From an uncultured Gammaproteobacteria bacterium (lineage in GTDB: Bacteria; Patescibacteriota; Microgenomatia; UBA1406): 48,596 bases of DNA. The stretch is taken from the NCBI GenBank assembly GCA_964358525.1, contig CAYHPU010000001.1:1-48596 (forward strand), read 5' to 3'. Below, piece by piece: positions 1,825 to 35,830 of this stretch. The notes under the pieces are model-generated. The model did no database searches. It saw only the letters and a list, made by a program, of their open reading frames with translations, and was not told the DNA's origin. Positions within the stretch are counted from its first letter, which is position 1; every line of letters starts with the position of its first letter. The position numbers and the translations under genes were made by a program.

Positions 1825-3354
1825 GTGAGATTTTTTAATATTACCCGCAACACCAGAAAAATTCTTTTGTATGGTGGAGTTGGAATACTGCTAATAGCCG
1901 CTCTTATATTCCGTACAATTAATTTAAATGCCGATCCGGCCAGTGGTTCATTTCTCGAAGCGGGGGACGAAGGAACTCATTCGTATGCGGCTCGAAATCT
2001 CTACCTGAATGGGACATGGAGAACCGATGGAGTTTTCTTTGCTGGAATTATGCCTGTTTATCCACTTCTACAAGTTGTTGGTCTTTATTTGTTTGGGCTT
2101 CATATATATTCCTTTCGATTCGTTAATATAATCGCTTCTATAATTACCATTTGTGTTGTGTACTTCTTTTTGAAAAAGGAGCTTGGCAAGAGAAGTGCGC
2201 TTGTTGGTAGTATTCCTTTTTTAATTAACCCGTTTTATTTAACATTTGTGAGAACAGGTCTCCCTGAAGGAACCATGATTCTTTTTTCCATTCTTGCACT
2301 CGTAACCTGGTACCGCGCACTTAATTCACATTCGCACCATTATGTTCGTGGTATTGTTGCTGGATGTGCTTTTGTTTTGGCCTTTTTTACCAAACAGTCA
2401 AGTATATGGCTTGCGCCAACATTATTCTTTACCTATGTTATTTTTTTTGTACATGAAATTTCACAAAAAAAGAAAACTCCTACCGTACATCATTTTTTAC
2501 ACAGCGGGGCGGGGTTTGTCGCCGCCGTCATTTTGTTGTCACTGCTTTACTTGGTAATCATTGTGTTACCAAATAAACCCGTTTGGCTTGTTAATTTCAC
2601 GGCGATTATCGGGGGGAATCGCCCACACGGCATTCGGGCATTTACCGAATGGTTTCCGGCGCAATTTTTAGGACTCATCAATAATTCCTTGTGGGGAGTT
2701 ATACCTATTCTTGTATTCTCTGCCTGTATATTTTGTGTTGTGCTTCTTTTGCGATATAGAAAGGAGGGAAGACTGTTTGACCTTACGCGAAAAAGTCACC
2801 GGCTCGAATTAATGTCTGTACTCTCTCTTTTCTTCTTCCTTATATATATGGTGCTTATACCTTCCCCCTATGCTCGCTTTCTTGTTGGTATTATTATTCC
2901 TCTGTCACTTATGTTTGCTCTTCTATTTGAGCACAAAAACTACCTGTTACTTACTTCAATACAAGGAAAAATAATGCCAGTAGTACTTGTATTGATGATT
3001 ATTAGTGAGGTTGTACTATCTATACAGGCCGACTACGAATTTTTTATTAAAAAAGCAACTTTTAATACTGTTGCCGCAGCACGGCAGTTGCGTCGTGCAA
3101 TTCCTACAAATAAAATGGCGGTTCTACCCGTCACATGGCTCATGGAGACAAACCATCAAAATTTAAACACCTTTCTTACACCATTAAATGACCATAGTAT
3201 TAGTACTTATTTCAATGAATATGGAAGGCCTGCTTATTTTGGGATTCGAAATGATCAAATAATACTTTATGAGAAGTCGGTCCCTCGATTTTTTAGTAGC
3301 CTTCGGTACGCTACAAAAATCCGAAACTACATTTTTTTTGTTGTACCCGAGTAG
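1825..3354 (+). CDS. GT-C fold membrane glycosyltransferase, ArnT/PMT-like (GT39/GT83-type)
   Basis: ORF 1705..3354. The 5' part overlaps the previous gene, so I moved the start to in-frame GTG 1825 (uncertain). It has many TM helices. The first loop, ADPASGSFLEAGDEGTHSYAARNLY, resembles the acidic DE loop of ArnT/PMT enzymes. Confidence 0.7.
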   Translation: MRFFNITRNTRKILLYGGVGILLIAALIFRTINLNADPASGSFLEAGDEGTHSYAARNLYLNGTWRTDGVFFAGIMPVYPLLQVVGLYLFGLHIYSFRFVNIIASIITICVVYFFLKKELGKRSALVGSIPFLINPFYLTFVRTGLPEGTMILFSILALVTWYRALNSHSHHYVRGIVAGCAFVLAFFTKQSSIWLAPTLFFTYVIFFVHEISQKKKTPTVHHFLHSGAGFVAAVILLSLLYLVIIVLPNKPVWLVNFTAIIGGNRPHGIRAFTEWFPAQFLGLINNSLWGVIPILVFSACIFCVVLLLRYRKEGRLFDLTRKSHRLELMSVLSLFFFLIYMVLIPSPYARFLVGIIIPLSLMFALLFEHKNYLLLTSIQGKIMPVVLVLMIISEVVLSIQADYEFFIKKATFNTVAAARQLRRAIPTNKMAVLPVTWLMETNHQNLNTFLTPLNDHSISTYFNEYGRPAYFGIRNDQIILYEKSVPRFFSSLRYATKIRNYIFFVVPE

Positions 3355-3422
3355 CTGTTTTATATCACTCTAACAATCTGTATATTTCTAGCTTGACAAA
3401 GTAGTCTATAGTCTAATACAGT

Positions 3423-4169
3423 ATGATATACTGCGTATATAATATAATGGGAAATACAAATAAAAGGAGTCTTTTACAGTTAGCAAAAAACCTACTCATT
3501 GTTTCTCTACCCGTACTAACGCTCTATTTTTCTATTGCTATCACACAAATATATGGGAATAACAATCCCCTGGCACACACTATAAGTAGTCCTGTTTCTG
3601 CTGTTTCAATTACACCCGTAAAGGCAAAAAAGAAAATACCAGCCCCGTCTCCATTTGTTCCTGCTCCACTTGATATAAGTAGAGAGCTTGAGGCGTTCTC
3701 TCGCCCTTCCTTTTCAACAGAAAACAGTGGTGAAGCGCTCGATTCTACGTCGGTCAATCTCATTCGAAACTCAGCTTTTAACACAACGTCTGGCTCAACA
3801 CCAAACCAGTGGAATTTTATTTTAGATTCTAATAACGGAAACACCGCTGTTAGTGAAGAGGCTCTTCGAACCGGCGTATATGGATTAAAGTTTAGTGGTG
3901 GTGGATCGGGGGTATTTGGTGTCTCACAACCACAGACAAAACTTATTGAAAATCGTGCATATGTATTTTCTGCTTTCTTTAAAGCAGTAAATGTTCCCGC
4001 TGGAACAACGGCACGTCTTGTATTTTGGGACCCAGATAAAAACACGTACGCGGTTACTAAATCGTTTTCATTCTCTGGTACAAAAGACTGGCAAGAATAT
4101 GCTTTCACTATAAATAATCGTGGGAAATTTAAAGGAAAGAATTGGTATCCAATGATTGACGTCCAATGA
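3423..4169 (+). CDS. membrane-anchored N-terminal part of a surface fibre protein: TM anchor plus a CBM4_9-like carbohydrate-binding module truncated by TGA
   Basis: TM helix LLIVSLPVLTLYFSIAI, then a module starting NLIRNSAFNTTSG..NQW with the typical CBM4_9 layout. It ends at TGA 4167-4169, before the expected final 'fyvDd' strand. An alternative start is ATG 3447. Confidence 0.7.
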   Translation: MIYCVYNIMGNTNKRSLLQLAKNLLIVSLPVLTLYFSIAITQIYGNNNPLAHTISSPVSAVSITPVKAKKKIPAPSPFVPAPLDISRELEAFSRPSFSTENSGEALDSTSVNLIRNSAFNTTSGSTPNQWNFILDSNNGNTAVSEEALRTGVYGLKFSGGGSGVFGVSQPQTKLIENRAYVFSAFFKAVNVPAGTTARLVFWDPDKNTYAVTKSFSFSGTKDWQEYAFTINNRGKFKGKNWYPMIDVQ

Positions 4170-4316
4170 TTAAAATCGGGCTCATTTTATGTTGCGGACT
4201 CTGCAATTACTGAGGGAACAGCCAAAATACCGTACCGGTTTAATGCGGGTGGTGGAGCACAGGAAATTTCAAGCATATTAGGAGACGGAACGGTATTAAT
4301 CGATAGAAACGGACTA

Positions 4317-6941
4317 GTGTATCCGGCAATTAATGGAAAAGGGAATTTAGGAGACGGCGACCACAGATGGGACTCTCTCTATTTGACAAATGCGGTGATT
4401 GATAAAAATGGTAATGCAGACTTTCGAAAACTTACCGCAAATGGAGATGTTGTACTAAAGGGTGGGGCATTTGAATTTAATATGCAAGATAATCGCGATC
4501 TGGTGTTTAAAATTAAAGAGGGTGACAATCAATATTTTGCTATTTCTACTGTGGACGCGGGAGAATATCTGAACATTGGAAACAATACAACCAATCCAAA
4601 TATCACCATAAATGGTAAATCTATAACCCTTTCTTCAAATACGAATGATATTGTTGTGGATTCGGCCGCTTCGATAGATATGCGCGATCCCATTTATAAC
4701 ACAACGGGCGCCGTAACCATTGCGGATGTGTTGTCTCAAACAGGAAGTGGGCAGGTAACTTTTTCCGGAAATGTTGACGCGAATAGTGGCGTAGATGTAA
4801 CTGGCGCAAATCTTACCGTTGGCGGCGCTAACTTTTTTGTCGATGTTTCAAATGGAAATGTAACAACCGCGGGTGACGTTGCGGTGAATGGGGGAGACAT
4901 AACATCAACCGCAACCACGTTTAATTTTGTAAATGGAACGGTAACTACTCTTAATGTTGGTGGTGTTGCAAATACCAATTTTGGCGGTGGATACGGATCA
5001 ACAGGAACAACTTTATCAAGCACTGGAAATATTCAAGCAAATGGAGCGTTAACACTTGATGGGGACGCCGCAGTAAACGGGGGAGATATAACATCAACAG
5101 GTACACTCAATATAACAGCGGGTGGTACAACAACAATAAATCCAACAACAGGTGATGTTCTAATTAATTCTGCCAGTGGAAATCTCGACGTGCGGGACGA
5201 TATTGTAAACGGCGCAGGTGCAGTAACTATCGCCGATGTGTTAACACAAACGGGAGTTGGACAAGTAACATTTGGTGGTAATGTCGACGCAACGGGGGGG
5301 GTGGATGTGACGGGAGCGGCTCTAACGTTTGCTGTAGGATTATCAGGTGACAACTTCTCTGTTGCAGACACCTCTGGTGACATTACGACAGGCGGAGATC
5401 TTGCAGTAAACGGCGGAGATATGACTTCTACCGCCACAACATTTAACATGCTTAATGCCAATGTCACAACATTTAATTTTGGCGCAATTGCAGATGTAAA
5501 TGTTGCTGGTGGATACGGATCTTCTGGAACAACAATTTCAAGTGCAGGAAATGTCTCAACAAACGGAACACTGACGGTTGACGGTTCGGCAACTTTAAAT
5601 GGGGGTGTTTCAGCAGACTCGGGCGTCTTTACTGTCACCGACACAACGGGAGCTATCCACACAAGTAGCACTCTTGATGTGGACAGTAGCACAACGCTCG
5701 GCGGGAACGTAACCTTTGATGCGGGCGCATCACGTACTGTAACTGTTGCAACCGCTGGAGATAATAGCATAATTACTCTTGCTGTAGTTGGCCCAGCGTC
5801 CTCAACGGCACTCGCTAATGGAGGAAATCTTGTTCTAGGTGGGGGAGCGCCAGGCGCCGGTGGTGTACGAGGCGCAGTAGTATCTAATGCAAATGACGAT
5901 TTCGGTGCATCTGGAAACCGATGGGGCACCGTATATGCAAACACTGTTAACTTTTTAACAAGTCTTGTAGGCTCGGGTACCCCGAGTGTTGACTTCTCGG
6001 GAGTATCTGCGGCTAACCTAGGCTTTCAGGCAGATTCAATTATAGACGCCGATGTGTCTAACACCCTTACCTCGTCACTATTTGTTGGTTCTGGATCTTC
6101 GACAACAGCGGTAGACTTAGGAACTGCGGAAGTTGCGGGAACATTGACAACAGACAAGGGTGGAACTGGCAACAGCAGTACGTTTACCCAATATGGTGTC
6201 ATCTACGCTCCAACAACAACATCACAGGGGAGCACCTTGGCCGGCGCAACGGCAAACGTCGTGCTTCATGGAAATCCCTCGGGTGCACCGACCTGGAGTG
6301 CGGTTGATTTAGGAACAGCCGATGTTACAGGAACCTTAGGTGACGCTAATGTTGCCGATGCGCTAACATTTTCAACGTTAACAGGTGCAAATGCAAACAC
6401 CATAACCAACCCTTCAGCAGGAACAATTCTATTGAATGTATCTACCCTAAGTGTAGCTGCAAATGCAACAATTGCACCAACTGGTGCGGGAACTTTAACG
6501 GTGCAATCTAATGGGGCAAATAATCTTATACTTGACGCAGGCGGAGCAGCGGCTGTCACCATAGGTAATGCAAACGCATCATCAGTAAGTATTTGTAGCA
6601 GTGCAACGTGTGATACTATAGATATTGGTACTAACGCAGACGCCGATACAATTAACTTGGGTGACAGCAACGATACGGTGAATTCACCAGGAACACTGTC
6701 TTCCTCTGGAACAATCTCAAGTAGCGGAGTTGTTAACTTTAGTGGGGCGTCGTCCGTTCGTATTGCGGTTGGCGCTGGTCTTTCGGCAACAGGAACATGC
6801 AACGCATCTGGTCATGCAGGAAAAGTATATTACGCCAATACAACTGCTGGCGCCATGACTTCTGGGATTGCATATATTTGTGTTGATGACGCTAACAGCG
6901 ATGGAACCAACACAGATTATGCTTGGGAAGCAATGAATTAA
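4317..6941 (+). CDS. G/T/N/A/V-rich fibre or adhesin-like surface protein, same frame as 3423..4169
   Basis: 874-aa ORF in the track, starting at GTG. The frame is open from 4170 with no start codon or SD before 4317. It has a 170-aa tandem repeat, RWDSLY and NRWGTVY motifs, a tail-fibre-like DKGGTG motif and a Cys-containing C-terminal ~60 aa. Confidence 0.8.
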   Translation: MYPAINGKGNLGDGDHRWDSLYLTNAVIDKNGNADFRKLTANGDVVLKGGAFEFNMQDNRDLVFKIKEGDNQYFAISTVDAGEYLNIGNNTTNPNITINGKSITLSSNTNDIVVDSAASIDMRDPIYNTTGAVTIADVLSQTGSGQVTFSGNVDANSGVDVTGANLTVGGANFFVDVSNGNVTTAGDVAVNGGDITSTATTFNFVNGTVTTLNVGGVANTNFGGGYGSTGTTLSSTGNIQANGALTLDGDAAVNGGDITSTGTLNITAGGTTTINPTTGDVLINSASGNLDVRDDIVNGAGAVTIADVLTQTGVGQVTFGGNVDATGGVDVTGAALTFAVGLSGDNFSVADTSGDITTGGDLAVNGGDMTSTATTFNMLNANVTTFNFGAIADVNVAGGYGSSGTTISSAGNVSTNGTLTVDGSATLNGGVSADSGVFTVTDTTGAIHTSSTLDVDSSTTLGGNVTFDAGASRTVTVATAGDNSIITLAVVGPASSTALANGGNLVLGGGAPGAGGVRGAVVSNANDDFGASGNRWGTVYANTVNFLTSLVGSGTPSVDFSGVSAANLGFQADSIIDADVSNTLTSSLFVGSGSSTTAVDLGTAEVAGTLTTDKGGTGNSSTFTQYGVIYAPTTTSQGSTLAGATANVVLHGNPSGAPTWSAVDLGTADVTGTLGDANVADALTFSTLTGANANTITNPSAGTILLNVSTLSVAANATIAPTGAGTLTVQSNGANNLILDAGGAAAVTIGNANASSVSICSSATCDTIDIGTNADADTINLGDSNDTVNSPGTLSSSGTISSSGVVNFSGASSVRIAVGAGLSATGTCNASGHAGKVYYANTTAGAMTSGIAYICVDDANSDGTNTDYAWEAMN
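4683..5681 (+). repeat. in-frame tandem duplication (510 nt + 489 nt) inside the fibre gene
   Basis: Copy 1 (RDPIYNTTGAVTIADVLSQTGSGQVTFSGNVDA...STATTFNF...GGGYGSTGTT...LDV) matches copy 2 (RDDIVNGAGAVTIADVLTQTGVGQVTFGGNVDA...STATTFNM...AGGYGSSGTT...LDV). The copies start at 4683 and 5193. Confidence 0.85.
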
Positions 6942-6942
6942 A

Positions 6943-7548
6943 ATGCGCTCATACAGCCCTCTTATTACCTTTCCCCTTCCACAGAAAAAGCCGAGAAACT
7001 TTTTATTTGTGAATATAACAATTGTAATTTTTATAATTGTTATAACAGTTATGTTCCTTGGTTTTCCCCAAGCTAAAACAGGCGTCCTTATTCAAGATGG
7101 CTCACTCCATTTTTCTTTTATTGCACCGAGGGAATTGAAGCGCCTTACCGCACAGCAATTGGCCACCTATAATCCTAGCTTTATATACATGTTTACCGCA
7201 AAAAACAACAATTCAATTACTTGTTTTATTTCTCAAACTCAACACCTTAAAAAGGGATCCGTTACCAAAGAAGAACTTTCAGCAGGACTCGTGCGTCACC
7301 TTGAAGAGCAATTTGAAAAATATACAGTACAGCGAAAAAAACAACGAGGCGTAGGCACACAGGAGGGAATTCAGATTGAGGCAACGTATCGGGATAATAA
7401 TCGCTCCATGAAACATATTGAACTTATTACTGCAAGCAGTGAAAAGACAACGTTTGTTAATTGTTCTGCGCCTGTTTCTGAATACAACTTTTACAAACCG
7501 CAATTTGATACGATGGTATCGTCGTTCAAGATATCTAATGAAAAATAG
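6943..7548 (+). CDS. hypothetical N-terminally membrane-anchored protein
   Basis: 201-aa ORF starting 2 nt after the fibre gene stop. TM helix FLFVNITIVIFIIVITVMFLGF. The C-terminal pattern C.A...Y....F....SF is shared with the next ORF. Confidence 0.65.
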   Translation: MRSYSPLITFPLPQKKPRNFLFVNITIVIFIIVITVMFLGFPQAKTGVLIQDGSLHFSFIAPRELKRLTAQQLATYNPSFIYMFTAKNNNSITCFISQTQHLKKGSVTKEELSAGLVRHLEEQFEKYTVQRKKQRGVGTQEGIQIEATYRDNNRSMKHIELITASSEKTTFVNCSAPVSEYNFYKPQFDTMVSSFKISNEK

Positions 7549-8098
7549 GATTCTTATAGTTTTATTTCTTTGCCTTGGGATACTTGTAGGTACTGTAGGG
7601 ACTCTCTATGGCCTTTATTACCTGTCCACACACGACATTGTTGGGACACGTCTACTTTTCTTCCTCAAGCAACCGTCGCAACAACAGGTTGTTGATCGAG
7701 AAAATTTTATTTCTTACCTTCTCCCCGTGGGATTTAAAAAAGATTCTGGAGTTGATTTAACAAAAAAATTTGGTGCCGATTATATTAGTGGATTCCACCA
7801 TATATATGATGCGCGCATAGGATGCGAAGTACGTAAAGAGATGCGCGGCATTGAATTAGTTCGACAGGTTTATCAGGAAAAAACGAAAACGAATTCCATA
7901 ATAAATACCTCTCGGGGTATTCAATTTAACTATTTTCTTGTTGATCCTCTCTCTGCAACACAAATTATGACTACCCTCCTTGTTCCAAAAAATGAAGGTG
8001 TTTCCTATGTTCTAACCTGTGGAGCGGGGCGCGCATACCACGCACTTTATGCACATGACTTTGCCAATTTCTTTAACTCGTTCAGTTTTGTACAATAG
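7538..8098 (+). CDS. hypothetical membrane-anchored protein, possible paralogue of 6943..7548
   Basis: Track ORF 7418..8098. I chose in-frame ATG 7538 (MKNRILIVLFLCLGILVGTV...), which overlaps the upstream stop by 11 nt. Confidence 0.65.
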   Translation: MKNRILIVLFLCLGILVGTVGTLYGLYYLSTHDIVGTRLLFFLKQPSQQQVVDRENFISYLLPVGFKKDSGVDLTKKFGADYISGFHHIYDARIGCEVRKEMRGIELVRQVYQEKTKTNSIINTSRGIQFNYFLVDPLSATQIMTTLLVPKNEGVSYVLTCGAGRAYHALYAHDFANFFNSFSFVQ

Positions 8099-8102
8099 AA
8101 GT

Positions 8103-8438
8103 ATGTTCCAGCCTTTTTTAGCTTCTTTTACTAAAATAGTAGTTAGCTCACTATTTTCTTTTACAAACCTCATCCTTTTCTTTATTGAACTATCATTTGC
8201 GGCAAAAATAGTCAGGTCGCTTCGTCTTGATCAGTGGTTTCATCCAGTTACCGCCTCAGTTCGTTTTGTTATTTCACTTTTAATAACAATTGTTGTTTTT
8301 GTACCTATAAATAATTATGTCTTGCGGTATGTACAGTTTTTATTTGGATCGGGAGTTCCTCTTGCCAAGTTTTTTACTGGTATTGAATTTGCTGTGTTCA
8401 TTATTTTACTTGTAGGGTTTTATAAAAAACAAGCATGA
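8103..8438 (+). CDS. small polytopic membrane protein
   Basis: Track ORF 8019..8438. In-frame ATG 8103 (MFQPFLASFTKIVV...) lies 5 nt after the previous stop. It has 2-3 hydrophobic helices, and its stop overlaps the next start (ATGA). Confidence 0.6.
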   Translation: MFQPFLASFTKIVVSSLFSFTNLILFFIELSFAAKIVRSLRLDQWFHPVTASVRFVISLLITIVVFVPINNYVLRYVQFLFGSGVPLAKFFTGIEFAVFIILLVGFYKKQA

Positions 8439-8863
8439 GTATTCGTAAACGTATTGGTGCATTATTTATCGCCTGTGGCCTAATTGGAGTAGGTATAAGT
8501 GTGTTATTTTTCTTAAAACCAGACACTATGCTTTATCTTGTTGGGCTCCAATCACCCTACGCAGATTACCGAGCGGTCACTATGATCAATAAAGCTATGT
8601 TTATAGGGAAAGTCACCAACGAATCCGCGGATCCTGTAGTGCTCACCAATGTATTTTACATAAAGAAAGCCACACCGTCTGCTATTCTGCAAAAAATGGG
8701 CGAGGGAGACACTATTAAGTCCGAAGCTATTAAAATTAAACGAAAAGATATTCTCTATTTACAGAAATTACAACCAAATTCATCTATTCTTCGGTTGATT
8801 CAAAAGTATTATGATGATAAAAATAAACCGAAACAAAATGTAGAAGTTCCTATTAACCCATAA
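8435..8863 (+). CDS. hypothetical membrane-anchored protein (paralogue of 8870..9328)
   Basis: 142-aa ORF with an N-terminal TM. Core YRAVTMINKAMFIGKV...VLTNVFYIK aligns with YHAIVLKNGQIYLGKI...LTIEDVYYFK in the next ORF. Confidence 0.65.
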   Translation: MSIRKRIGALFIACGLIGVGISVLFFLKPDTMLYLVGLQSPYADYRAVTMINKAMFIGKVTNESADPVVLTNVFYIKKATPSAILQKMGEGDTIKSEAIKIKRKDILYLQKLQPNSSILRLIQKYYDDKNKPKQNVEVPINP

Positions 8864-8869
8864 ACTAAT

Positions 8870-9328
8870 ATGAAAGCACTTTTTTTAGCCCTTATGCTTG
8901 TCTTTATGGGCGTTGGAATAACACTCTCTGTGCTTATGTACTTTCGTATGGGACCGTTCCAGAAGGATGCCACAACTAAAACATACTCAAAAAATTACCA
9001 CGCAATTGTCTTAAAAAATGGACAGATCTATCTCGGAAAAATACAAGAAGAAAAAAATGGCTTTCTAACTATTGAGGACGTATATTATTTCAAGGTTCTT
9101 AGTGTTCCAGTCCCACAACCAACATCAAAATCAAAAGTAAAACAAAGCACGTCGTCTGCTGCCTTAAAAAAACAATTCACCATTTTAAAACTCGGCAGTG
9201 AATTTCATGGCCCAACAGATGAATTAATGCTGAATAAAGACCAAGTGAAATCAATCGAAGAACTCAAAAATGATAGTAAAATTGTGCAAGCAATTAAAAA
9301 ATACTTAGAGGAAGCCAAAAAGAGGTGA
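8870..9328 (+). CDS. hypothetical membrane-anchored protein (paralogue of 8435..8863)
   Basis: 152-aa ORF with an N-terminal TM and the shared core motif given for the previous feature. The C-terminal part reads LKLGSEFHGPTDELMLNKDQVKSIEELK. Confidence 0.65.
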   Translation: MKALFLALMLVFMGVGITLSVLMYFRMGPFQKDATTKTYSKNYHAIVLKNGQIYLGKIQEEKNGFLTIEDVYYFKVLSVPVPQPTSKSKVKQSTSSAALKKQFTILKLGSEFHGPTDELMLNKDQVKSIEELKNDSKIVQAIKKYLEEAKKR

Positions 9329-9334: not shown

Positions 9335-10150
9335 TTAGAGGTGCGCTACTTGTAGTAGATCTTTTTCTCCAAAATATCTCCCCAGGAACAATTTCACCAG
9401 TACATTATACTGTTCGCTAAAGTCCGAAACATAATATTCTCTTTTTTGATTCTTTTTTATCAATTTTTCTATTTCTGGATGATTTTCAAAATAGTTTTTA
9501 AGTTTTTCTGGAATAACTACCGCCTCAGAAACAATAGTAATACCCTCTCCTAAAACATTTCGAATTTGCTTTTCAATAAGGCTGTAATGAGTACATCCTA
9601 AAAGAAGCGTGTCGATGTTTCTTTTTATGAGTGGATATAGATATTTCTCCAGAATAGATTTGAGCCCGTCCCATTCGAACTCACCTTCTTCAATAATAGG
9701 AACAAGGAGGGGACATTCGTTTTGAACAACCGTACTCTCTGGCAAAACTTTTCGTATCTCGCGCTCAAACGCCCCAGAAGAAATGGTAGCCCGCGTACCA
9801 ATGACGCCAACACACTTTGATTGAAGTACTGCAATAGTCTCGACAGCTGGTTTAACAACCCCTAAAATTCTTCTGCTGGGATATTTTTGTGGTAAATATT
9901 CACGCTGTAATCTACGAAGTGCGTTTGTTGTGGATGTATTACAGGCAAGAATTACGAGTGCACAATTTTTCTTGAATAAAAAATCTACTGATTGTTTTGT
10001 CAATTCATAAATTAGTTCTGGTGATTTATTTCCATATGGCACGTGAGCATTGTCACCAAGATACACGTAATTATAGTCGGGTAACTTCTTGTACAACTCT
10101 TTGAGTACTGATAACCCACCAAGGCTTGAATCAAAAACCCCAATATTCAT
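9335..10150 (-). CDS. murI: glutamate racemase
   Basis: GVFDSSLGGLSVLKEL, the catalytic Cys motifs LACNTSTT and LGCTHYSL, 271 aa. Confidence 0.9.
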   Translation of the reverse strand: MNIGVFDSSLGGLSVLKELYKKLPDYNYVYLGDNAHVPYGNKSPELIYELTKQSVDFLFKKNCALVILACNTSTTNALRRLQREYLPQKYPSRRILGVVKPAVETIAVLQSKCVGVIGTRATISSGAFEREIRKVLPESTVVQNECPLLVPIIEEGEFEWDGLKSILEKYLYPLIKRNIDTLLLGCTHYSLIEKQIRNVLGEGITIVSEAVVIPEKLKNYFENHPEIEKLIKKNQKREYYVSDFSEQYNVLVKLFLGRYFGEKDLLQVAHL

Positions 10151-11996: not shown

Positions 11997-12581
11997 ATGG
12001 CACAACCTGTTGTTTTTGATGTTGAGACACAAAATTCATTTCGGGAGGTAAATAACGATACAAAAAAACTTCGTGTATCGGTTGCTGTTGCATATGACTA
12101 TGCGACAAATAAATCATATTCTTTTACCGAAAAAACAATTGGAGACCTGTTTCGGCTATTTGAAAAAGCATCACTCCTTGTTGGTTATAACAGCAACAAC
12201 TTTGACCTTGTTGTTCTCTCACCCTATTATGTGGGGGATTTGTTTTCGTTTGAGCGGTTTGATCTTATGGAGAGTATAAAAGAGAAAACTGGCCGGCGCT
12301 ATCCACTGGATGATCTTATAACGGCAACGCTCTCCAAGGGAAAGACTGGTCACGGTCTACAGGCAATTGATTTTTTTCGAGAAGGGCGAATCGAAGAACT
12401 TACCTCATATTGTACTGACGATGTTATGCTTACTAAAGAGCTTTTTGATTTTGGAATTACCAACAGATTTATCTACCTTCCAACCGCAGTAAGCAAAATA
12501 AAGGTTCCTGTATCGTGGCACCTCGAGCTAGAAAGAAAGCATAGCGAAAAAAAATCTCCAAACTTAACTCTGGGTTTTTAG
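11997..12581 (+). CDS. stand-alone DEDD 3'-5' exonuclease, RNase H-like fold (PolB-exonuclease-like)
   Basis: ExoI FDVETQ, ExoII GYNSNNFDL, ExoIII YCTDDV. 194 aa. Confidence 0.7.
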   Translation: MAQPVVFDVETQNSFREVNNDTKKLRVSVAVAYDYATNKSYSFTEKTIGDLFRLFEKASLLVGYNSNNFDLVVLSPYYVGDLFSFERFDLMESIKEKTGRRYPLDDLITATLSKGKTGHGLQAIDFFREGRIEELTSYCTDDVMLTKELFDFGITNRFIYLPTAVSKIKVPVSWHLELERKHSEKKSPNLTLGF

Positions 12582-13499
12582 CCCCAATTCATCCCATAGT
12601 ACACCTGGTATTGTTTGCAAAACTTCGGTTGTGGTATAAAATGGTCCGATATTTTTATATAGTCTGTCCGCTGCCGCTTTCAAAATAAACGAGGCGGATG
12701 ACGCTGCTAAAATAGCATCATTTTTCACAAAAAACGCCGCAACGAGCGCAGATAAAAGGTCACCCGTACCGCCCTTAATTAAACCTTCGTTTCCTCCCTC
12801 AATGCGCGTCTTATTTTCCGTGCTTCTTGAAAATACAAAGTCGGTGTCCTGGTGCTTGAGAAGCCATGTTGCTTCTGTTGTTTTGGTACCAAGTTGACAA
12901 ATTTCTTCAAGAAGACGGTCTTCATTCCACTCTTGGATTTTGAACTGGGGAAAAAGTCGAGTATATTCACCCCAATGGGGGGTTAAAATGGAATTTTTTG
13001 GAATAAGACCCAACTCTACTTCTTGCAACGCTCCCGCGTCTATTACCCATTTTTTTTGCGGAAAATCTCTCAGTAGTTTATTAACCAACAAATGCGTTAG
13101 CTCCCCCTCGTCCTCGCCCAACAGTATCTCGCTGACACTGTTTGTTGTTGGTTGTTTGTTGTTAGTTGGTGGTTGACTTCTTCTGCACATCCCTGGACCA
13201 ATCAAGACAACGTCGGCCTCTGCAATATAATGCAGAAGTTTATCTTGAGAAATTATTATTCCATTTCGAAATTCAATTTTACTTTTTAGCAAAATCTCTT
13301 CATTGGTGTGTGCGGGGGAAAAATAAAAGACTAAGTCAACAAAATGGGCCAGAAGTTCTGCTGCCCAAATGCTCGCACTATGAAAGAGGGTAGAACCGCC
13401 AATAACCAAAACTTTACCATTGTCACCTTTGTGTGATTTTTTTCGTACAAGGCGTAGTTTTTTTATGTCCGAAGCATTAAATTTAATTTTCTCACCCAT
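12564..13499 (-). CDS. nnrD: ADP/ATP-dependent NAD(P)H-hydrate dehydratase (YjeF C-terminal type)
   Basis: KGDNGKVLVIGGS...HSASIWAA and GGTGDLLSALVAAF. It contains a low-complexity insert, SQPPTNNKQPTTNS. Confidence 0.85.
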   Translation of the reverse strand: MGEKIKFNASDIKKLRLVRKKSHKGDNGKVLVIGGSTLFHSASIWAAELLAHFVDLVFYFSPAHTNEEILLKSKIEFRNGIIISQDKLLHYIAEADVVLIGPGMCRRSQPPTNNKQPTTNSVSEILLGEDEGELTHLLVNKLLRDFPQKKWVIDAGALQEVELGLIPKNSILTPHWGEYTRLFPQFKIQEWNEDRLLEEICQLGTKTTEATWLLKHQDTDFVFSRSTENKTRIEGGNEGLIKGGTGDLLSALVAAFFVKNDAILAASSASFILKAAADRLYKNIGPFYTTTEVLQTIPGVLWDELGLKTQS

Positions 13500-13523: not shown

Positions 13524-14549
13524 ATGCGGTATCTACTCAAAGTTACTATAATTGTTTTAATTACTCTCGGTATTGGACTGTGGTGGTTTAATAAAGCCAA
13601 ACCGCCGGTGCTTTCAAAATCTGGAAAACCGAAACAAACCTTTGTCGTTACCACTCAGAACCTAAAGAGTACCTTAAGCATTTCCGGAACTGTGCAGGCT
13701 GAAGAGAAGGTCTTGCTCCAATTTCAAACATCAGGAAAACTCTCGTGGGTTGGTGTAAAAGAAGGGGACTCTGTTCAAAAGTACCAAGCGATTGCCGGAC
13801 TTGATCAGCGAGATTTACAAAAGAATTTGCAAAAAAAATTATACGACTTCACCTCGTCGCGCTGGACTGTTGATCAATGGAGAGACGATAATAAAAGCGC
13901 CGCAACAGGAGACACAAATATCTATTTGAGTGACCGTTTAACTCGCCTGGCACAGCAGGGTCAATTTTCTCTTGACAAGACTATTCTTGATGTTGAACTT
14001 TCCCAATTAACTATTGAGCTGGCAACGCTCGTAACTCCAATTGGGGGAATTGTTACGCACGTCGACCAGCCATACGCAGGAGTTAATATTACCCCGGCAG
14101 GCGCACGGTTTGAAATTGTCAATCCCGATTCTCTATACCTAAGGGGGTTCGTAGATCAACAGGATGTCATTAAGCTTCGAGAAAATTCGAGAGCAGAAAT
14201 TATATTTGATGCAATCCCCGATAAAAACTACGTCGGGAAACTTGTTTACATTGCTTTTTCTCCTGAATCTTCTGACGAAAATTCGTATGTAATTAAAATT
14301 AAGTTACCCCACTCTCTGTTGTCAAAGGTGCGTCTTGGTATGGGTGCAGAAATTTCTATAAATACGTTGCAAAAAAATGGTGTTCTCGCGGTTCCCCTCG
14401 AAGCAATAGAAGAGCAAGGAACTAAAAAATATATATTTATACAAACAAAAAACGGTGAAGTAAAAAAACAAATTACAACAGGTCTCGAAACTGATGAATT
14501 CGTTGAGGTTAAAAAAGGTCTTAAAAAGAACGATGTTGTTGTCTATTAA
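13524..14549 (+). CDS. efflux ABC periplasmic adaptor (MacA/HlyD-family membrane fusion protein)
   Basis: N-terminal TM. The lipoyl-like motif ISGTVQAEEKVLLQFQTSGKLSWVGVKEGDSVQKYQAIAGLD. Followed by ABC ATPase and FtsX-type permease genes. Confidence 0.8.
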   Translation: MRYLLKVTIIVLITLGIGLWWFNKAKPPVLSKSGKPKQTFVVTTQNLKSTLSISGTVQAEEKVLLQFQTSGKLSWVGVKEGDSVQKYQAIAGLDQRDLQKNLQKKLYDFTSSRWTVDQWRDDNKSAATGDTNIYLSDRLTRLAQQGQFSLDKTILDVELSQLTIELATLVTPIGGIVTHVDQPYAGVNITPAGARFEIVNPDSLYLRGFVDQQDVIKLRENSRAEIIFDAIPDKNYVGKLVYIAFSPESSDENSYVIKIKLPHSLLSKVRLGMGAEISINTLQKNGVLAVPLEAIEEQGTKKYIFIQTKNGEVKKQITTGLETDEFVEVKKGLKKNDVVVY

Positions 14550-15210
14550 TCACGTCAGCAAAATATACCGTCCCTCGAAAGACGTTACGGTAAACGCACT
14601 AATTGATGTTTCGTTTGAAATAAAACAGGGAGAATTTGTTGCAATACTCGGAAGCTCCGGCTCAGGAAAGTCAACGCTCTTATATATGTTAGGGCTTCTT
14701 GAACGACCTACGGAGGGAGTTATTTATGTTGCAGACGAAGATATTTCTCGTTTGTCAGATGCCGAGATATCTCGTATACGAAATCAAACCATTGGGTTTG
14801 TCTTCCAACAATTTAACTTGATAACCAAACTTACTGTTCTCGAAAATGTTCTTTTACCCGCGCATTATTCACCCCTTGGTGTAACTGCCGCAATAGAAAA
14901 ATATGCGCAGTATCTTCTTGAGACATTTGGGATTCTTGAAAAGAAAGACGCATTTCCTAACCAACTTTCTGGTGGACAACAACAGCGCGTTGCTATTGCC
15001 CGCGCATTGGTAAATTCTCCGAAGGTTATTATCGCCGACGAACCTACGGGAAACCTCGATTCAAAGACCGGTATTCAAATAATGGAACTTATTAAACAAA
15101 TTCATATAAAAGAAGGTAAGACAATACTAGTAGTTACTCATGACGAGCATATTGCTAGCTACGCAAAGCGAATTATCCATATGTTTGACGGAAGGATTAT
15201 TAAAAAATGA
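14533..15210 (+). CDS. ABC transporter ATP-binding protein (MacB/LolD-like)
   Basis: Walker [10 protein letters not shown], signature LSGGQQQR, Walker [10 protein letters not shown] chose start ATG 14533 ([12 protein letters not shown]) rather than the track's 14494. Confidence 0.9.
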
Positions 15211-17143: not shown

Positions 17144-19387
17144 TTATTTGAACTTAATAAGAAGTAGTCTATCTTTCTCCAGAAAGGTATTATACACAAA
17201 ATCTGTCTTGCGAACAACTGGCGTAAAATTTGTTGTCAAAACTCCGAGTGGGGGAGCAACGTGCATTTGATAAATAAAGTCATTGTTTAGTAACCCTATT
17301 TGTTTTTGTACTATAAGTTGATATTCTTTTTCTTTTCCTAATGTGTTTGTGAAATCATACTGGATAGTAACCGAGCGAGACGAACCAATGGGTACTTCCG
17401 CTAAAAAACCAATTCGTTTGAATCCTAAATCTGTATCTTCGACATAGTCGAGCACCGGCTCACCATCAATAGCAACCTTCCTAATAAGCGTTTCTTGGGG
17501 AAGATATACCTGCAAGTAGTTCTTGTACCTTCCTCCGGGAAATACGCGCTCTATTGAATTATTTTGGTATAAAATTGTTAGCGAATTACTTACGTGCCGA
17601 TCCCGATCAATGGACGTTGCCAAACGCACAGAGCGCTGTACAAAAAAATTCGCCTTATTTACCCCCAAGTTTGCATCTACCACCTGCACATAATCAAAAA
17701 AACAGCTCGTACCCGTGTTACATCCGGGTTTAATAACTCTCCCCGTCCAGAATAATTCGTCAAACGACGATTGTACCGATTCTTTACTAAACCGAACTGC
17801 CGCTAGTTTTTCGTCAAACACCGTACCTATTGTCATTACGAGAGAAATAAAATTATAATCACCTTCTTCAAGCTTTGTTTGCGCAGTACGTACTACCGAC
17901 TCTAGGAAATTTCTCTTTCCGTGAGAACCGGGGAAAAATCCAGTTTCTGCATATTCTTGAGCTTTGATAAAAAAGTTGTCGGGAGTTAACCATTCATCGT
18001 ACGACGAAACATAAAAGTCAGGAAAAACACCAATAAGTTTTTGTACAGCGCTCAGTGTTACTCCAATTACCCCGTCAAAACGATCCCATCCCACCTCTGC
18101 TTGAATGAGTCTTTCGATTTCTACCACCGAAGCACCAAAATCGGGAGAAAACGCGGCGTCTCGAACAAATAAATGTGGCTGATCTAAGTACGTTCGTATG
18201 GCGGCGGGCGGATCATAATGAAGTTTTAACTGCCCATCGAGTGAATATACATCATATATCCGAAGCGAGGTTAGTGAGAAGTGTGAAAACTCCATTACCC
18301 CGAGGGAGCCAATAAATCCGCCCCCCGGGCGTAGCTCCATATTATTCATAAATAGAAAAAGATATCGACGTGTACCCTTACCTCCAAGTAAATCTGGCAA
18401 TTCTGTTGTAATCTGCCGAACGAGAGAAATATAGTCCGAAAGTGGTTCAAGTATGTCAACTGCCTTTTTTATATTCGTTTTTTTCCATTGACCGACGGCA
18501 TCGTAATAAAGGTCCCCAAAATCGCCAAGAGTTTTTTTTATTTTTGATAGACGCAACACTATCTCATCTGATTCATTTTTAGTTTTCTGTGGTCGCAAAA
18601 ATAAGTGAGAAAGTGCTTGATACTCCTCAAACAAGTCGCTCCCTTTTATACCAAGACCTGTCGTCTTTTGAAACGCGATTTGCAATTGTAAAACATAATC
18701 TATTCCAGGAACCCAAAACAAAGTATTTTTAGGTACTACCACAAAAAGGGAGGTCGCCCTATCAATAATAGAGAGCTCCAATAGTTTTGCTTTAATTATT
18801 GGAACAGATGAGCGATTTATTTTTGAAAGCTGGCTGAAGAAAAATCCCTCAATAATAAAGAAAATAAAGAAAATTATATTCAGTGCAATAATGCACGATA
18901 AAAAATAAAGGCTTACCCACTTAAGTGCTTGTTTTGGAGTCAATACAAAAGGAGAAGAGTAGGGGTGCGGTCGAATTTGTTTTGAAAAACTAAAAGCATA
19001 GGGAATTGGTGTTTTGAACAATATAAAATGTACTAAATCTTGTATTGTTCTGTCTGTTTTTCCCAGATTGATAATTTTATACTGTGTTAGTTTCTTTTCA
19101 CACCATTTTTTCTTTTGCAAAAACAACAGCTCATTATTAATGATAATTACAATAGGAATCTTACATTGAAACAAAAGTTTCTCTTCGGGAAAATAACCAA
19201 CAAAAATTCCCACATCATATTCTTTATGTGGTTCCGTTGTATTATCTGGGCCGCCAGAATGCTCATATATAATATGCTCATTTTGCAACACGGTGCGAAT
19301 AGCACGGGTCAGTTTGTTTTCGTGTATAAACACAAATAAGGCCGTTTTTTTTTCCTCAACAACCTCAACTATAAATCTTCTTTTCAT
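17144..19387 (-). CDS. DUF4012 domain membrane protein
   Basis: 747 aa with a TM helix around aa 160-185. Hallmark motif LFLFMNNMELRPGGGFIGSLG. Confidence 0.75.
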   Translation of the reverse strand: MKRRFIVEVVEEKKTALFVFIHENKLTRAIRTVLQNEHIIYEHSGGPDNTTEPHKEYDVGIFVGYFPEEKLLFQCKIPIVIIINNELLFLQKKKWCEKKLTQYKIINLGKTDRTIQDLVHFILFKTPIPYAFSFSKQIRPHPYSSPFVLTPKQALKWVSLYFLSCIIALNIIFFIFFIIEGFFFSQLSKINRSSVPIIKAKLLELSIIDRATSLFVVVPKNTLFWVPGIDYVLQLQIAFQKTTGLGIKGSDLFEEYQALSHLFLRPQKTKNESDEIVLRLSKIKKTLGDFGDLYYDAVGQWKKTNIKKAVDILEPLSDYISLVRQITTELPDLLGGKGTRRYLFLFMNNMELRPGGGFIGSLGVMEFSHFSLTSLRIYDVYSLDGQLKLHYDPPAAIRTYLDQPHLFVRDAAFSPDFGASVVEIERLIQAEVGWDRFDGVIGVTLSAVQKLIGVFPDFYVSSYDEWLTPDNFFIKAQEYAETGFFPGSHGKRNFLESVVRTAQTKLEEGDYNFISLVMTIGTVFDEKLAAVRFSKESVQSSFDELFWTGRVIKPGCNTGTSCFFDYVQVVDANLGVNKANFFVQRSVRLATSIDRDRHVSNSLTILYQNNSIERVFPGGRYKNYLQVYLPQETLIRKVAIDGEPVLDYVEDTDLGFKRIGFLAEVPIGSSRSVTIQYDFTNTLGKEKEYQLIVQKQIGLLNNDFIYQMHVAPPLGVLTTNFTPVVRKTDFVYNTFLEKDRLLLIKFK

Positions 19388-21115: not shown

Positions 21116-21122
21116 TAAATTA

Positions 21123-21986
21123 TTATACTGGTTTCTGTGTAGCAAAACCCTCTTTAAGAAAGTAGAAAAGGGGCGTAGCAATAAAAGGAGATGAGTACGT
21201 ACCAAAAAGTGTTCCTAGAAGTAGCGCTGTCGCAAACCACCGTATTGTCTCCCCACCTAAGAGTATCATCGCCGTTAACATAATAACCACGGTAAACGAG
21301 TTATTAAATGATCTTCCAATTGTTAAAGTGAGTGCCGCATTCACCGTCTCTTCAAGAGAATTGTATGATCCGTTTTTTTGTTCTTCCGCAATTTTATCGA
21401 AAATAATAATAGTGTCGTGCACAGAAAAAGACATGGTTGTTAAAAGTGCGGTAATAAATAACAGGTCAAACTCTGCACCAAAGAACCTCCCCAGCACAGA
21501 CCACGCACACAATAACATTCCTGTGTCATGAAACAGGGCAATTAGTGCGGCGATCGCATAGCGCACATTTCTAAACGAATATGAAATATAAAGAAGTATT
21601 CCGGCTGCAGCAATTCCTACGGCAGCCAGTGTTTTTACTACATTATCTGAGCTCATTGAAGGATTCACCCTTTCGATTCGTACTTGTTTTGCGGCTATTT
21701 CCTTTTTCATTTTTAGGGAGATTTTATTTTGAAGCTCCTTGTTTATTTCCTTTCTCCGTACCAAAAACCCGCTGCCCGTTTCCCGAAAAATAAACTTATT
21801 TTGAGAGGCAATTTTGCGTGCTTTTACTAATAGAGCCTTTTGTTTTAACAAAAATTCTACCGTCGTTCCTCCAACAAAATCAATTGAATAGTTAAATCCG
21901 TACTTGACAATATGAAGTACTCCTAAAATCAAAAGCACAGACGAAAATAAAACAAAAAAATATCGATACCGAATAAATGGAATCAT
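21123..21986 (-). CDS. secF: protein translocase subunit SecF
   Basis: DFVGGTTVEF and six TM helices. Overlaps the secD stop (ATGA). Confidence 0.9.
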   Translation of the reverse strand: MIPFIRYRYFFVLFSSVLLILGVLHIVKYGFNYSIDFVGGTTVEFLLKQKALLVKARKIASQNKFIFRETGSGFLVRRKEINKELQNKISLKMKKEIAAKQVRIERVNPSMSSDNVVKTLAAVGIAAAGILLYISYSFRNVRYAIAALIALFHDTGMLLCAWSVLGRFFGAEFDLLFITALLTTMSFSVHDTIIIFDKIAEEQKNGSYNSLEETVNAALTLTIGRSFNNSFTVVIMLTAMILLGGETIRWFATALLLGTLFGTYSSPFIATPLFYFLKEGFATQKPV

Positions 21987-29504: not shown

Positions 29505-30011
29505 ATGGAAGAAATGGAAAACAACAATTCAAACCAAGCGTTATTTTTATGGGATGCTCCTATACGATATTTTGAGAAAAAGCCGCCAACATTTGGGAAA
29601 TCTTTAATAGCCCTCGGTATTCTGTTTTCATTAATTGCTTATTTTATTGGCGAACCATTTTTAGTTTTGGTTGTGTGGATGGTTGTGTTTGTTTCTTATG
29701 TAAAAATAACTATCCCCCCACCAAACACACAATATTCGGTAACTACTTTTGGTATACACATTAGTGAGACAATTATTGAATATAAGCACATTCATAGTTT
29801 TGCATATGAAATAAAAAAAGAGGGAAGTGTTCTTCGTTTTTACCTTACTATTACAGGACAACCATTTTTTGTCATACTACCAATGCCCTTTCTAAAAACA
29901 ACAGAACTCTTGACTTTTCTAAAATCACAACTACCTTATTTGGAGCGCGTACCAAAAACAGACGCAGAACGGTTTACCGAATGGGCGGGGAAAACAATAG
30001 GATTAACGTAA
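29505..30011 (+). CDS. hypothetical two-TM membrane protein
   Basis: 168-aa ORF. TATAAT at 29501-29506 suggests the functional start may be the second ATG at 29514 (leaderless). Confidence 0.6.
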   Translation: MEEMENNNSNQALFLWDAPIRYFEKKPPTFGKSLIALGILFSLIAYFIGEPFLVLVVWMVVFVSYVKITIPPPNTQYSVTTFGIHISETIIEYKHIHSFAYEIKKEGSVLRFYLTITGQPFFVILPMPFLKTTELLTFLKSQLPYLERVPKTDAERFTEWAGKTIGLT

Positions 30012-35617: not shown

Positions 35618-35830
35618 TCAGAGTGCTATTGTAGAAAACAATAGTAAAAAGAGTCCCAGAACAATTGTTAAAAGAGAGGCGCTAAACAAATATCTATTTT
35701 CACTTGCACTATATGCTCTGTTCATTTTTTTGAGCTGCTGCCGAAAAATAAATGAATAAATAAGATATCCCCCGCTAAAAAAAATACTCACAATTTTTAA
35801 CAATACGGATAAGTAGGGAGTGTCATTCAT
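35618..35830 (-). CDS. small two-TM membrane protein
   Basis: 70-aa ORF with two hydrophobic helices. Overlaps the upstream gene by 8 nt. Confidence 0.55.
   Translation of the reverse strand: MNDTPYLSVLLKIVSIFFSGGYLIYSFIFRQQLKKMNRAYSASENRYLFSASLLTIVLGLFLLLFSTIAL

What the first reader, a model, noticed from the sequence alone, without database searches (positions are those of the whole stretch)
3423..6941. One in-frame TGA splits a 1,172-codon anchored surface-fibre gene inside its carbohydrate-binding module
ORF 3423..4169 and ORF 4317..6941 share a frame (4317-4167=150), and TGA 4167-4169 is the only stop between them. The 50 codons 4170-4316 are open and contain no ATG, GTG or TTG start. 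They encode LKSGSFYVADSAITEG, which is the final 'fyvDd' beta-strand expected of the CBM4_9-like module that begins at NLIRNSAFN. The stop therefore cuts a folded domain rather than a linker.

No SD or -10 precedes GTG 4317. TGA is a genuine stop elsewhere in the window: the ATGA overlaps at 8435-8438, 15207-15210 and 40449-40452, plus rny and 9326-9328. Genome-wide TGA reassignment is therefore unlikely. A 6-bp AU hairpin (4171-4176 with 4184-4189) starts 1 nt after the stop.

Three explanations remain:
- Programmed or leaky UGA readthrough, giving a short anchored stub plus a low-abundance full-length fibre.
- A fresh nonsense mutation, or a population variant that switches the fibre off.
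- A base-call error.
Basis: partly seen in the sequence, partly recalled or inferred. Interest (0 to 1): 0.7.

Follow-up and report, generated by a model that had tools for sequence, protein, structure and literature searches.

The report
Nonsense-broken surface fibre gene
A large surface-fibre gene of an uncultured groundwater Patescibacterium is cut in two by one TGA that replaces a conserved glycine codon, which looks like an ordinary recent knockout mutation and not a programmed recoding signal.

Summary
ORF 3423/3447..4169 and the open frame 4170..6941 share one frame, separated only by TGA 4167-4169. No in-frame start occurs before GTG 4317.

Relatives show this is one gene. All 71 family representatives that cover this column read straight through it, with G in 40, N in 21 and D in 4. 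The three closest DNA loci carry GGA, GGT and GGG there, so the window's TGA is one G-to-T step from GGA. An AlphaFold model places the stop in the turn before the last, confidently predicted strand (SFYVADSAITE) of a CBM4/9/16-type beta-sandwich.

TGA is a normal stop in this genome: RNase Y, SecD and an ABC ATPase all end on it. No stable RNA structure or Rfam element follows the stop, and the "hairpin" scores +0.5 kcal/mol. A second assembly (ENA contig, Hainich well H52) carries the same TGA, which makes a base-call error unlikely.

The 924 codons after the stop are still open and keep the family motifs, so the lesion is recent.

Best reading: a recent loss-of-function nonsense allele. Programmed readthrough, selenocysteine and UGA=Gly decoding have no support. 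Interest is low.

The parts
3393..3442 (+). Promoter-like region of the fibre gene: TTGACA-18-TACAGT (3393-3422), plus a TATAAT box at 3437-3442 five nt before ATG 3447
   Evidence: Consensus scan; upstream sequences. These are consensus matches only and were not tested for function.
3447..4169 (+). Upstream fragment (240 aa, NCBI AAB893_04315). It holds an N-terminal hydrophobic signal/anchor (about 3471-3554), a Pro-rich linker, and a CBM-like beta-sandwich that lacks its last strand. An alternative in-frame ATG lies at 3423.
   Evidence: (P0001). Pfam CBM_4_9 scores 24.2 bits over residues 112-231, covering profile positions 2-117 of 136.
3756..4214 (+). Complete CBM4/9/16-type beta-sandwich as encoded across the stop, from NLIRNSAFN to SFYVADSAITE
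   Evidence: AlphaFold2 model: pLDDT 71-95 across the domain, with the last strand (model residues 151-161) at 89-95. Foldseek against CBM16 3oea_A gives E 7.9e-10 and TM 0.82 normalised to the target. Coordinates.
4167..4169 (+). In-frame TGA at a conserved Gly/Asn turn position between the last two strands of the sandwich
   Evidence: Relatives have GGA, GGT or GGG at this column. Across 71 family representatives the column is G40 N21 D4 E2 S1 K1 R1 A1 and never a stop.
4170..4316 (+). 49 open codons with no in-frame start. They encode the last sandwich strand and the start of the conserved neck.
   Evidence: The motif L.SG..Y.DD..L.EG is conserved in relatives and kept in the window.
4275..4391 (+). 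Conserved neck motif (LGDG...YPA..G.G.LG...RW..LYL), shared by the family directly after the CBM
   Evidence: Alignments A1 and A2; profile match up to position 227.
4170..6941 (+). Downstream fragment: a 923-codon beta-strand-repeat fibre with no further stop or frameshift, ending at TAA 6939-6941. It contains an internal duplication (about 4713-5117 versus 5223-5639, 60% identity over 139 aa) and a Cys-containing C-terminal domain.
   Evidence: (117 fibre-repeat relatives). There is no Pfam hit.
4317..4319 (+). GTG used by gene callers as the start of the downstream ORF. No promoter-like site or SD precedes it, and the product would have no signal peptide.
   Evidence: (ENA gene call at L001 1288 = window 4317).

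Best explanation
This is one gene for a secreted or anchored surface fibre. Its layout is an N-terminal signal/anchor, a CBM4/9/16-type sugar-binding beta-sandwich, a conserved neck, a long beta-strand-repeat shaft and a variable C-terminal tip. In this population it carries a recent nonsense mutation, most simply GGA (Gly) to TGA.

Translation ends at 4169. The product is a 240-aa fragment whose sandwich lacks its last strand, so it is probably unstable. The 923-codon shaft is not made, except through the low background misreading of UGA that any bacterium shows.

Shown: the stop, the single-ORF state of all relatives, the conserved Gly codon, the position inside the fold, normal use of TGA as a stop, the absence of a recoding signal, and the presence of the TGA in two assemblies. 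Inferred: that the allele is non-functional, and that it is recent because the downstream frame is intact.
For: - Continuous alignments cross the stop to P0086, P0089 and P0102 (E 1e-47 to 1e-60).
- Their codons at that column are GGA, GGT and GGG.
- Two GTDB genomes have uninterrupted ORFs of 1694 and 1321 codons with Gly at the column.
- All 71 family representatives that cover the column have a sense residue there (G40, N21, D4 and others).
- GGA to TGA is the commonest one-step route to a stop in this gene, at 62 of 313 routes. A TGA at a Gly column is therefore what a random nonsense hit would most often look like.
- The post-stop strand is part of the sandwich: pLDDT 89-95 and CBM16/4/22 fold matches.
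- RNase Y, SecD and an ABC ATPase end at TGA exactly at the ends of their profiles.
- There is no structure or known RNA element after the stop.
- The same TGA is in ENA contig Hain_H52_02um_R2_54277.
- Other family members are broken in other ways: an IS insertion in L009, a frameshift in L014, and a truncation in L006-L008. Null alleles of this gene family therefore occur in nature.
Against: - The 924 codons after the stop show no second lesion and keep all family motifs. That fits a very recent mutation, but it fits continued translation equally well.
- No near-identical intact allele was found. The closest relatives are only 44-47% identical, so the ancestral codon in this lineage is inferred and not observed.
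- Read-level support could not be examined. The second contig has only 3x coverage and may share reads with the MAG assembly.
Confidence: 0.78

Rival explanations
1. Leaky or programmed UGA readthrough. Most ribosomes stop and produce the short N-terminal piece. A regulated minority insert an amino acid and make the full-length fibre.
For: The downstream frame is fully intact and conserved. UGA is the leakiest stop codon in bacteria (general knowledge). A turn position that tolerates G, N, D, S, K, R, A and E could accept Trp or another residue.
Against: None of 71 relatives has a stop at this column. The 81 nt after the stop fold no better than shuffled sequence (z = 0.32). The proposed hairpin scores +0.5 kcal/mol. 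There is no Rfam match. The base after the stop is U, which is the efficient-termination context in E. coli (own knowledge, not tested in this organism). Three other genuine TGA terminators in the window are also followed by T.
Confidence: 0.08
2. Sequencing or assembly error: the real genome has GGA and an intact gene.
For: The change is a single base. The second contig has only 3x coverage. The MAG consensus could derive from overlapping read sets.
Against: A separately assembled ENA contig is identical over window 3030..5091, apart from one base 8 nt from its end. It carries the same TGA and is recorded in two samples. Substitution errors in short-read consensus are rare (general knowledge). 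The rest of the window shows no broken conserved genes.
Confidence: 0.06
3. A functional split: two separately translated products, with the fibre re-initiated at GTG 4317 or a later start.
For: Gene callers place a start at GTG 4317. This genome rarely uses SD motifs, so the lack of one is not decisive.
Against: No relative has a two-gene arrangement. The split lies inside a folded domain. The 49 codons before GTG 4317 are conserved coding sequence. There is no promoter-like site before 4317. The downstream product would lack any signal peptide, so it could not reach the cell surface (inference).
Confidence: 0.04
4. UGA is decoded as glycine here by a tRNA-Gly(UCA)-type suppressor, as in code 25 of the Gracilibacteria and Absconditabacteria, or as selenocysteine.
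For: The stop sits exactly at a column that is Gly in 40 of 71 relatives. UGA=Gly is known within the same superphylum (PMC8629427).
Against: There is one in-frame TGA in roughly 14,000 codons of gene models in the window, whereas TGA terminates RNase Y, SecD and an ABC ATPase at their profile ends. GGA to TGA is the commonest chance nonsense path in this gene. For Sec, relatives have G/N/D and not Cys at the column, and there is no SECIS-like structure. There is no tRNA in the window.
Confidence: 0.02

Closest known systems
Nonsense-inactivated (null-allele) surface-protein genes in bacterial populations
   Same: A single base change creates a stop at a conserved sense codon inside a domain of a large surface protein. 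The rest of the gene is intact. Other family members are broken by IS insertion or frameshift.
   Different: No repeat tract or invertible element lies at the site, so this is not classical reversible phase variation. Whether the allele is fixed or polymorphic is unknown.
CBM4/9/16/22 carbohydrate-binding modules (Pfam CBM_4_9, PF02018; solved CBM16 structures 3oea, 2zew, 2zey)
   Same: The beta-jelly-roll fold matches: Foldseek E 7.9e-10, TM 0.82 to 3oea_A, 24-25% identity. There is a Pfam CBM_4_9 match, and relatives carry PF02018.
   Different: The window's own Pfam score (24.2) is below the gathering cut-off (25.9). The module heads a fibre and is not attached to a glycoside hydrolase. The sugar ligand and binding residues are unknown.
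Genetic code 25 (UGA = Gly) of Gracilibacteria and Absconditabacteria
   Same: A UGA sits at a Gly position, in a member of the same superphylum.
   Different: Here UGA is a working terminator for conserved genes and is otherwise absent from reading frames. The match to Gly is what chance would give in this gene.
Programmed stop-codon readthrough and selenocysteine recoding
   Same: An in-frame UGA is followed by a long conserved open frame.
   Different: The stop is not conserved in relatives. There is no downstream structure or SECIS. The +4 base is U. Relatives have Gly/Asn and not Cys.
Phage tail-fibre-like beta-strand-repeat proteins
   Same: There is a long G/T/A/N/S/V-rich beta-strand-repeat shaft. 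The recurring motif G..RW..lY occurs twice, at 4362-4391 and 5916-5948. There is a weak PHROG short-tail-fibre match (E 0.0015). One relative is named 'virion structural protein' (P0034).
   Different: There is no significant PHROG, Pfam or PDB sequence match. The neighbours are cellular genes (a PMT_2 glycosyltransferase, a PsbP-like protein and glutamate racemase). An N-terminal secretion signal is present.

Membership tests
Nonsense-disrupted gene (null allele / young pseudogene) | Relatives encode the two parts as one uninterrupted ORF | tested here: met
   All 71 family representatives that cover the column are continuous across it. L010 and L011 have ORFs of 1694 and 1321 codons.
Nonsense-disrupted gene (null allele / young pseudogene) | The stop occupies a conserved sense codon one base change away | tested here: met
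   Relatives have GGA, GGT and GGG at the column. Gly fills it in 40 of 71 representatives. The window has TGA.
Nonsense-disrupted gene (null allele / young pseudogene) | The stop interrupts a folded domain, so the fragments cannot be natural separate products | tested here: met
   The stop is at model residue 146, in the turn between strand 139-144 and strand 151-161, which has pLDDT 89-95. The whole-domain fold matches CBM16.
Nonsense-disrupted gene (null allele / young pseudogene) | The stop is real at the level of reads or population | tested here: inconclusive
   Two assemblies agree. Reads could not be examined, and the second contig has 3x coverage.
Nonsense-disrupted gene (null allele / young pseudogene) | Further decay downstream (extra stops, frameshifts) | tested here: not met
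   The 924 codons after the stop are open and the family motifs are kept. If this is a pseudogene it is very young.
Programmed stop-codon readthrough | The stop codon is conserved at the site in relatives | tested here: not met
   0 of 71 representatives have a stop there.
Programmed stop-codon readthrough | A stimulatory RNA structure or leaky sequence context lies 3' of the stop | tested here: not met
   z = 0.32 against shuffles. The hairpin scores +0.5 kcal/mol. There is no Rfam hit. The +4 base is U.
Programmed stop-codon readthrough | The full-length product is detectable | not testable with these tools
   This needs proteomics, ribosome profiling or a reporter assay.
Selenocysteine insertion | A SECIS hairpin follows the UGA, and relatives have Cys or Sec at the site | tested here: not met
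   No structure is present. Relatives have G, N or D at the column.
Selenocysteine insertion | selA/selB/selC/selD are present in the genome | not testable with these tools
   Only this window is held, and it contains no tRNA.
Genetic code 25 (UGA = Gly) | UGA is frequent inside conserved genes and is not used as a terminator | tested here: not met
   RNase Y, SecD and an ABC ATPase terminate at TGA at their profile ends. TGA ends 26 of 84 stop-to-stop ORFs of at least 100 aa, counting all six frames and spurious ORFs. The fibre gene holds the only in-frame TGA in the gene models.
Genetic code 25 (UGA = Gly) | tRNA-Gly(UCA) is present and release factor 2 is absent | not testable with these tools
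   The rest of the genome is not held. There is no tRNA in the window.
CBM_4_9-type carbohydrate-binding module | Pfam PF02018 match above the gathering score | tested here: not met
   The window fragment scores 24.2 bits and the joined sequence 23.2, against a cut-off of 25.9. Relatives P0089, P0119-P0121 and others have PF02018 on record.
CBM_4_9-type carbohydrate-binding module | Beta-jelly-roll fold superposable on solved CBM4/9/16/22 modules | tested here: met
   Foldseek gives 3oea_A E 7.9e-10 with TM 0.82 normalised to the target. CBM4 (1gui, 2y6j), CBM22 (4xup) and CBM61 (2xom) also match.
CBM_4_9-type carbohydrate-binding module | Binds a carbohydrate | not testable with these tools
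   This needs binding assays.

The most novel reading that the evidence does not exclude
The TGA at a conserved glycine column is decoded as Gly at low efficiency by a UCA-anticodon or wobbling tRNA-Gly, in a Patescibacterium that otherwise still uses TGA as a stop. That would be an ambiguous-decoding intermediate on the road to code 25. The window alone cannot exclude it, because the genome's tRNA set and release factors are not visible.
Probability: 0.02. Interest if true: 0.85.

Novelty: new member of a known kind. Interest (0 to 1): 0.15.

Why it matters
As found, it matters little. It is one more null allele of a surface protein in an uncultured bacterium, and it should be annotated as a single disrupted gene and not as two hypothetical proteins.

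A modest by-product is the definition of a sizeable family, otherwise only named 'hypothetical': 53 representatives at E <= 1e-30 and 178 at E <= 1e-10. Its members are fibres headed by a CBM-like module and come mainly from Patescibacteria-type contigs. Several are found broken in different ways. If that reflects population-level loss of a surface fibre, it may bear on attachment to hosts or escape from phages in these episymbionts.

Only if UGA were actually read as glycine here would it bear on how code 25 arose.

Tried and rejected
- A word-indexed search with a 334-aa query spanning the stop found only the window's own 240-aa product. Relatives surfaced only through the fibre part and then a profile.
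- The metagenome-contig scan gave only two distant loci.
- PHROGs, PDB sequence search and Pfam gave nothing significant for the 923-aa fibre.
- I suspected a recurrent disruption hot-spot at the end of the CBM, because P0124-P0130 all end or lose frame within about 45 codons of it. I rejected it as a common mechanism because the causes differ. L009 has an IS with an rve transposase. The L006-L008 contigs stop about 10 nt (L007, L008) to about 107 nt (L006) after a truncation. L005 is an error-rich contig in which MreB is split in three. L014 has a frameshift. The search also selects for fragments that contain the CBM.
- The UGA=Gly coincidence is rejected as significant, because GGA to TGA makes up 62 of 130 one-step routes to TGA in this gene.
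- SECIS or readthrough elements are rejected.
- A second family copy in the window is ruled out; there is none.
It was repeated without them.
Full report
**1. The observation**

The sequence is as described.
- An ORF from ATG 3423 ends at TGA 4167-4169. A second in-frame ATG lies at 3447.
- The same frame stays open from 4170 to TAA 6939-6941, and TGA is the only interruption.
- The first in-frame ATG/GTG/TTG after the stop is GTG 4317. That leaves 49 open, start-less codons, which begin LKSGSFYVADSAITEG.
- The window is a 48,596-bp contig of a Patescibacteria MAG. NCBI calls the upstream piece AAB893_04315, 240 aa from ATG 3447.
- ATG 3447 is the likelier start. A TATAAT box lies at 3437-3442, and a TTGACA-18-TACAGT promoter-like site ends at 3422.

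**2. One gene or two?**

The evidence points to one gene.
- The fibre part alone finds 117 beta-strand-repeat relatives.
- Three of them (P0086, P0089, P0102) align with the joined window sequence in a single BLASTP segment that runs across the stop. Identity is 35-42% and E is 1e-47 to 1e-60.
- At the stop column all three have glycine, and their DNA reads GGA, GGT and GGG.
- Two species-representative genomes carry uninterrupted ORFs of 1694 and 1321 codons, again with Gly there.
- A profile of the region was searched against 1.84 billion representative proteins. It finds 53 proteins at E <= 1e-30 and 178 at E <= 1e-10.
- In the 71 that cover the column, the residue is G (40), N (21), D (4) or another sense residue, and never a stop.
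- The motif after the stop (L.SG..Y.DD..L.EG, then LGDG...YPA..G.G.LG...W..L.L) is conserved in the family and is kept in the window.

**3. Where the stop falls in the fold**

- Pfam gives a near-threshold CBM_4_9 match: 24.2 bits against a cut-off of 25.9. It covers profile positions 2-117 of 136, so the match ends before the end of the profile.
- An AlphaFold2 model was built for residues 104-338 of the joined protein, with X at the stop and 12 sequences in the alignment.
- The sandwich is predicted with confidence. Strand 139-144 (YPMIDV) is followed by a turn containing the stop (position 146), then a final strand 151-161 (SFYVADSAITE) at pLDDT 89-95. Everything after 162 is below 50.
- Foldseek matches the model to CBM16 (3oea_A, E 7.9e-10, TM 0.82 of the target, 160 aligned columns) and to CBM4, CBM22 and CBM61 modules.
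- The stop therefore removes the last strand of a jelly-roll.

**4. Is TGA a stop in this organism?**

Yes.
- RNase Y (36560..38017) ends at TGA at the end of its NCBIfam profile. So do SecD (21983..23323, minus strand) and an ABC ATPase (14494..15210).
- Of the stop-to-stop ORFs of at least 100 aa, counted in all six frames and so including spurious ones, 26 of 84 end in TGA.
- The fibre gene holds the only in-frame TGA among about 46 gene models.
- UGA=Gly is known only in Gracilibacteria and Absconditabacteria (PMC8629427). This window does not behave like those genomes.

**5. Recoding signals**

None was found.
- The 81 nt from 4160 fold no better than shuffles (z = 0.32).
- The 6-bp A-U hairpin has an energy of +0.5 kcal/mol.
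- Rfam finds nothing in 3300-7000, even at E <= 1.
- The window holds no tRNA.
- The base after the stop is U. In E. coli that is the efficient-termination context (my own knowledge, untested for this organism).
- Relatives have G, N or D at the column and not Cys, which argues against selenocysteine.

**6. Error or real?**

- A separately assembled ENA contig (Hain_H52_02um_R2_54277, 2062 bp, 3x coverage, seen in two samples) equals window 3030..5091, apart from one base 8 nt from its end.
- It carries the same TGA.
- This makes a random base-call error unlikely.
- Read-level independence from the MAG assembly cannot be checked here.

**7. Why glycine?**

- In this Gly-rich gene, GGA to TGA is the commonest single-base route to any stop. 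It accounts for 62 of 313 such routes, and 62 of the 130 that lead to TGA.
- A TGA at a Gly column is therefore what a chance nonsense hit would most often produce.
- It needs no appeal to UGA=Gly decoding.

**8. Mechanism**

The best-supported account is a recent G-to-T nonsense mutation in a single fibre gene.
- The 240-aa product has a signal/anchor, a linker and a sandwich missing its last strand, and is likely unstable.
- The shaft is not made beyond background UGA misreading.
- A re-initiated product from GTG 4317 would lack a secretion signal, and no promoter-like site precedes that codon.
- The missing SD is weak evidence here. SD cores are no commoner at gene starts (8 of 46) than at random positions (12%). 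By contrast, 12 of 46 starts have a -10-like box within 20 nt, against 3.4% at random.
- The intact 924-codon downstream frame means the lesion is young. It is also the one fact that keeps low-level functional readthrough alive as a rival.

**9. Other broken family members**

Several profile hits end or lose frame near the end of the CBM. The causes differ.
- P0126 is followed by an IS transposase (L009).
- P0129 is truncated and runs into AT-rich non-coding DNA. L007 and L008 end about 10 nt after the gene and L006 about 107 nt after it.
- P0130 and P0186 are the two halves of one frameshifted gene (L014).
- P0125 lies on an error-rich contig in which MreB is in three pieces.

There is thus no shared recoding site. 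Null alleles of this family do seem frequent, although the search favours CBM-containing fragments.

**10. Comparison and novelty**

- The phenomenon is a known kind, a nonsense-disrupted surface-protein gene, and this is a new instance.
- The gene family itself (a CBM-headed, tail-fibre-like shaft with variable tips, in Patescibacteria-type contigs) is unnamed in the databases searched.
- It has no significant Pfam, PHROG or PDB sequence match for the shaft.
- The neighbours are cellular genes: a PMT_2 glycosyltransferase upstream, then a PsbP-like protein and small membrane proteins downstream.

**11. Verdict**

The domain-cutting stop and the standard genetic code are right. Among the three explanations, the nonsense allele is favoured (about 0.78). 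Readthrough scores about 0.08, error about 0.06, a functional split about 0.04, and Gly or Sec decoding about 0.02.
- Interest is 0.15.

Noticed in passing
window, 46 gene starts (e.g. 3437-3442, 9335..10150 start, 12564..13499 start, 13524, 30003..30581 start, 32299..33135 start, 35823..36365 start): Many genes have a TATAAT/TACAAT-like box 9-14 nt before the start codon: 12 of 46 starts against 3.4% of random positions. Shine-Dalgarno cores are not enriched (8 of 46 against 12%). This suggests widespread leaderless or very short-leader mRNAs in this Patescibacterium.
   Followed up: partly
L009 664-3239; L014 1-2952; L006 8001-8845, L007, L008; L005 8001-11019: Other members of the same fibre family are disrupted near the end of the CBM by different lesions. 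L009 has an IS (rve transposase) insertion. L014 has a frameshift that splits P0130 from P0186. L006-L008 show a truncation into AT-rich DNA where contigs end. L005 has several frame breaks on an error-rich contig. Null alleles of this family may be common in nature.
   Followed up: partly
P0123 (400 aa, JGI contig of 1805 bp): After ILGDGSVEVDAHG, the family sequence switches into a penicillin-binding-protein transpeptidase-like sequence (…AVAINPENGEILALVSLPDFDNN…). This is either a chimeric contig or a deletion that fuses the fibre head to a PBP gene.
   Followed up: no
P0032, P0061, P0066, P0069, P0093 (hits): Long fibre-repeat proteins from Levybacteria, Blackburnbacteria, Amesbacteria and other Patescibacteria carry N-terminal HTH_17/MerR or integrase SAM-like domains. 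That is an odd DNA-binding-plus-fibre architecture. HTH_17/MerR genes also sit next to family members in L002 and L005.
   Followed up: no
window 17144..21205, minus strand: The 605-aa SpoIID/LytB-domain ORF (19388..21205) ends in TAA. The ATG of the 747-aa ORF 17144..19387 follows immediately in the same frame (CGGTAAATGAAAA). There is zero spacing, so this could be another split or a tightly coupled pair.
   Followed up: no
L010 (CAYPMW010000002.1) and L011 (CAYYSJ010000007.1): Both species-representative MAGs are titled 'uncultured Gammaproteobacteria bacterium'. Yet they carry full-length members of this family, otherwise seen mostly on Patescibacteria-labelled contigs, at 38-42% GC. The taxonomic labels may be wrong.
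   Followed up: no
window 4362-4391 and 5916-5948; 4713-5117 versus 5223-5639: The motif G..(H/N)RW..(L/V)Y..N occurs twice in the fibre (GDHRWDSLYLTN and GNRWGTVYANTV). The shaft also contains an internal duplication of about 139 aa at 60% identity.
   Followed up: partly
window 6943..9328: A PsbP-like protein gene starts 2 nt after the fibre's TAA. It is followed by four small predicted membrane proteins with no family match, two of them linked by an ATGA overlap. They may form an operon with the fibre gene.
   Followed up: no
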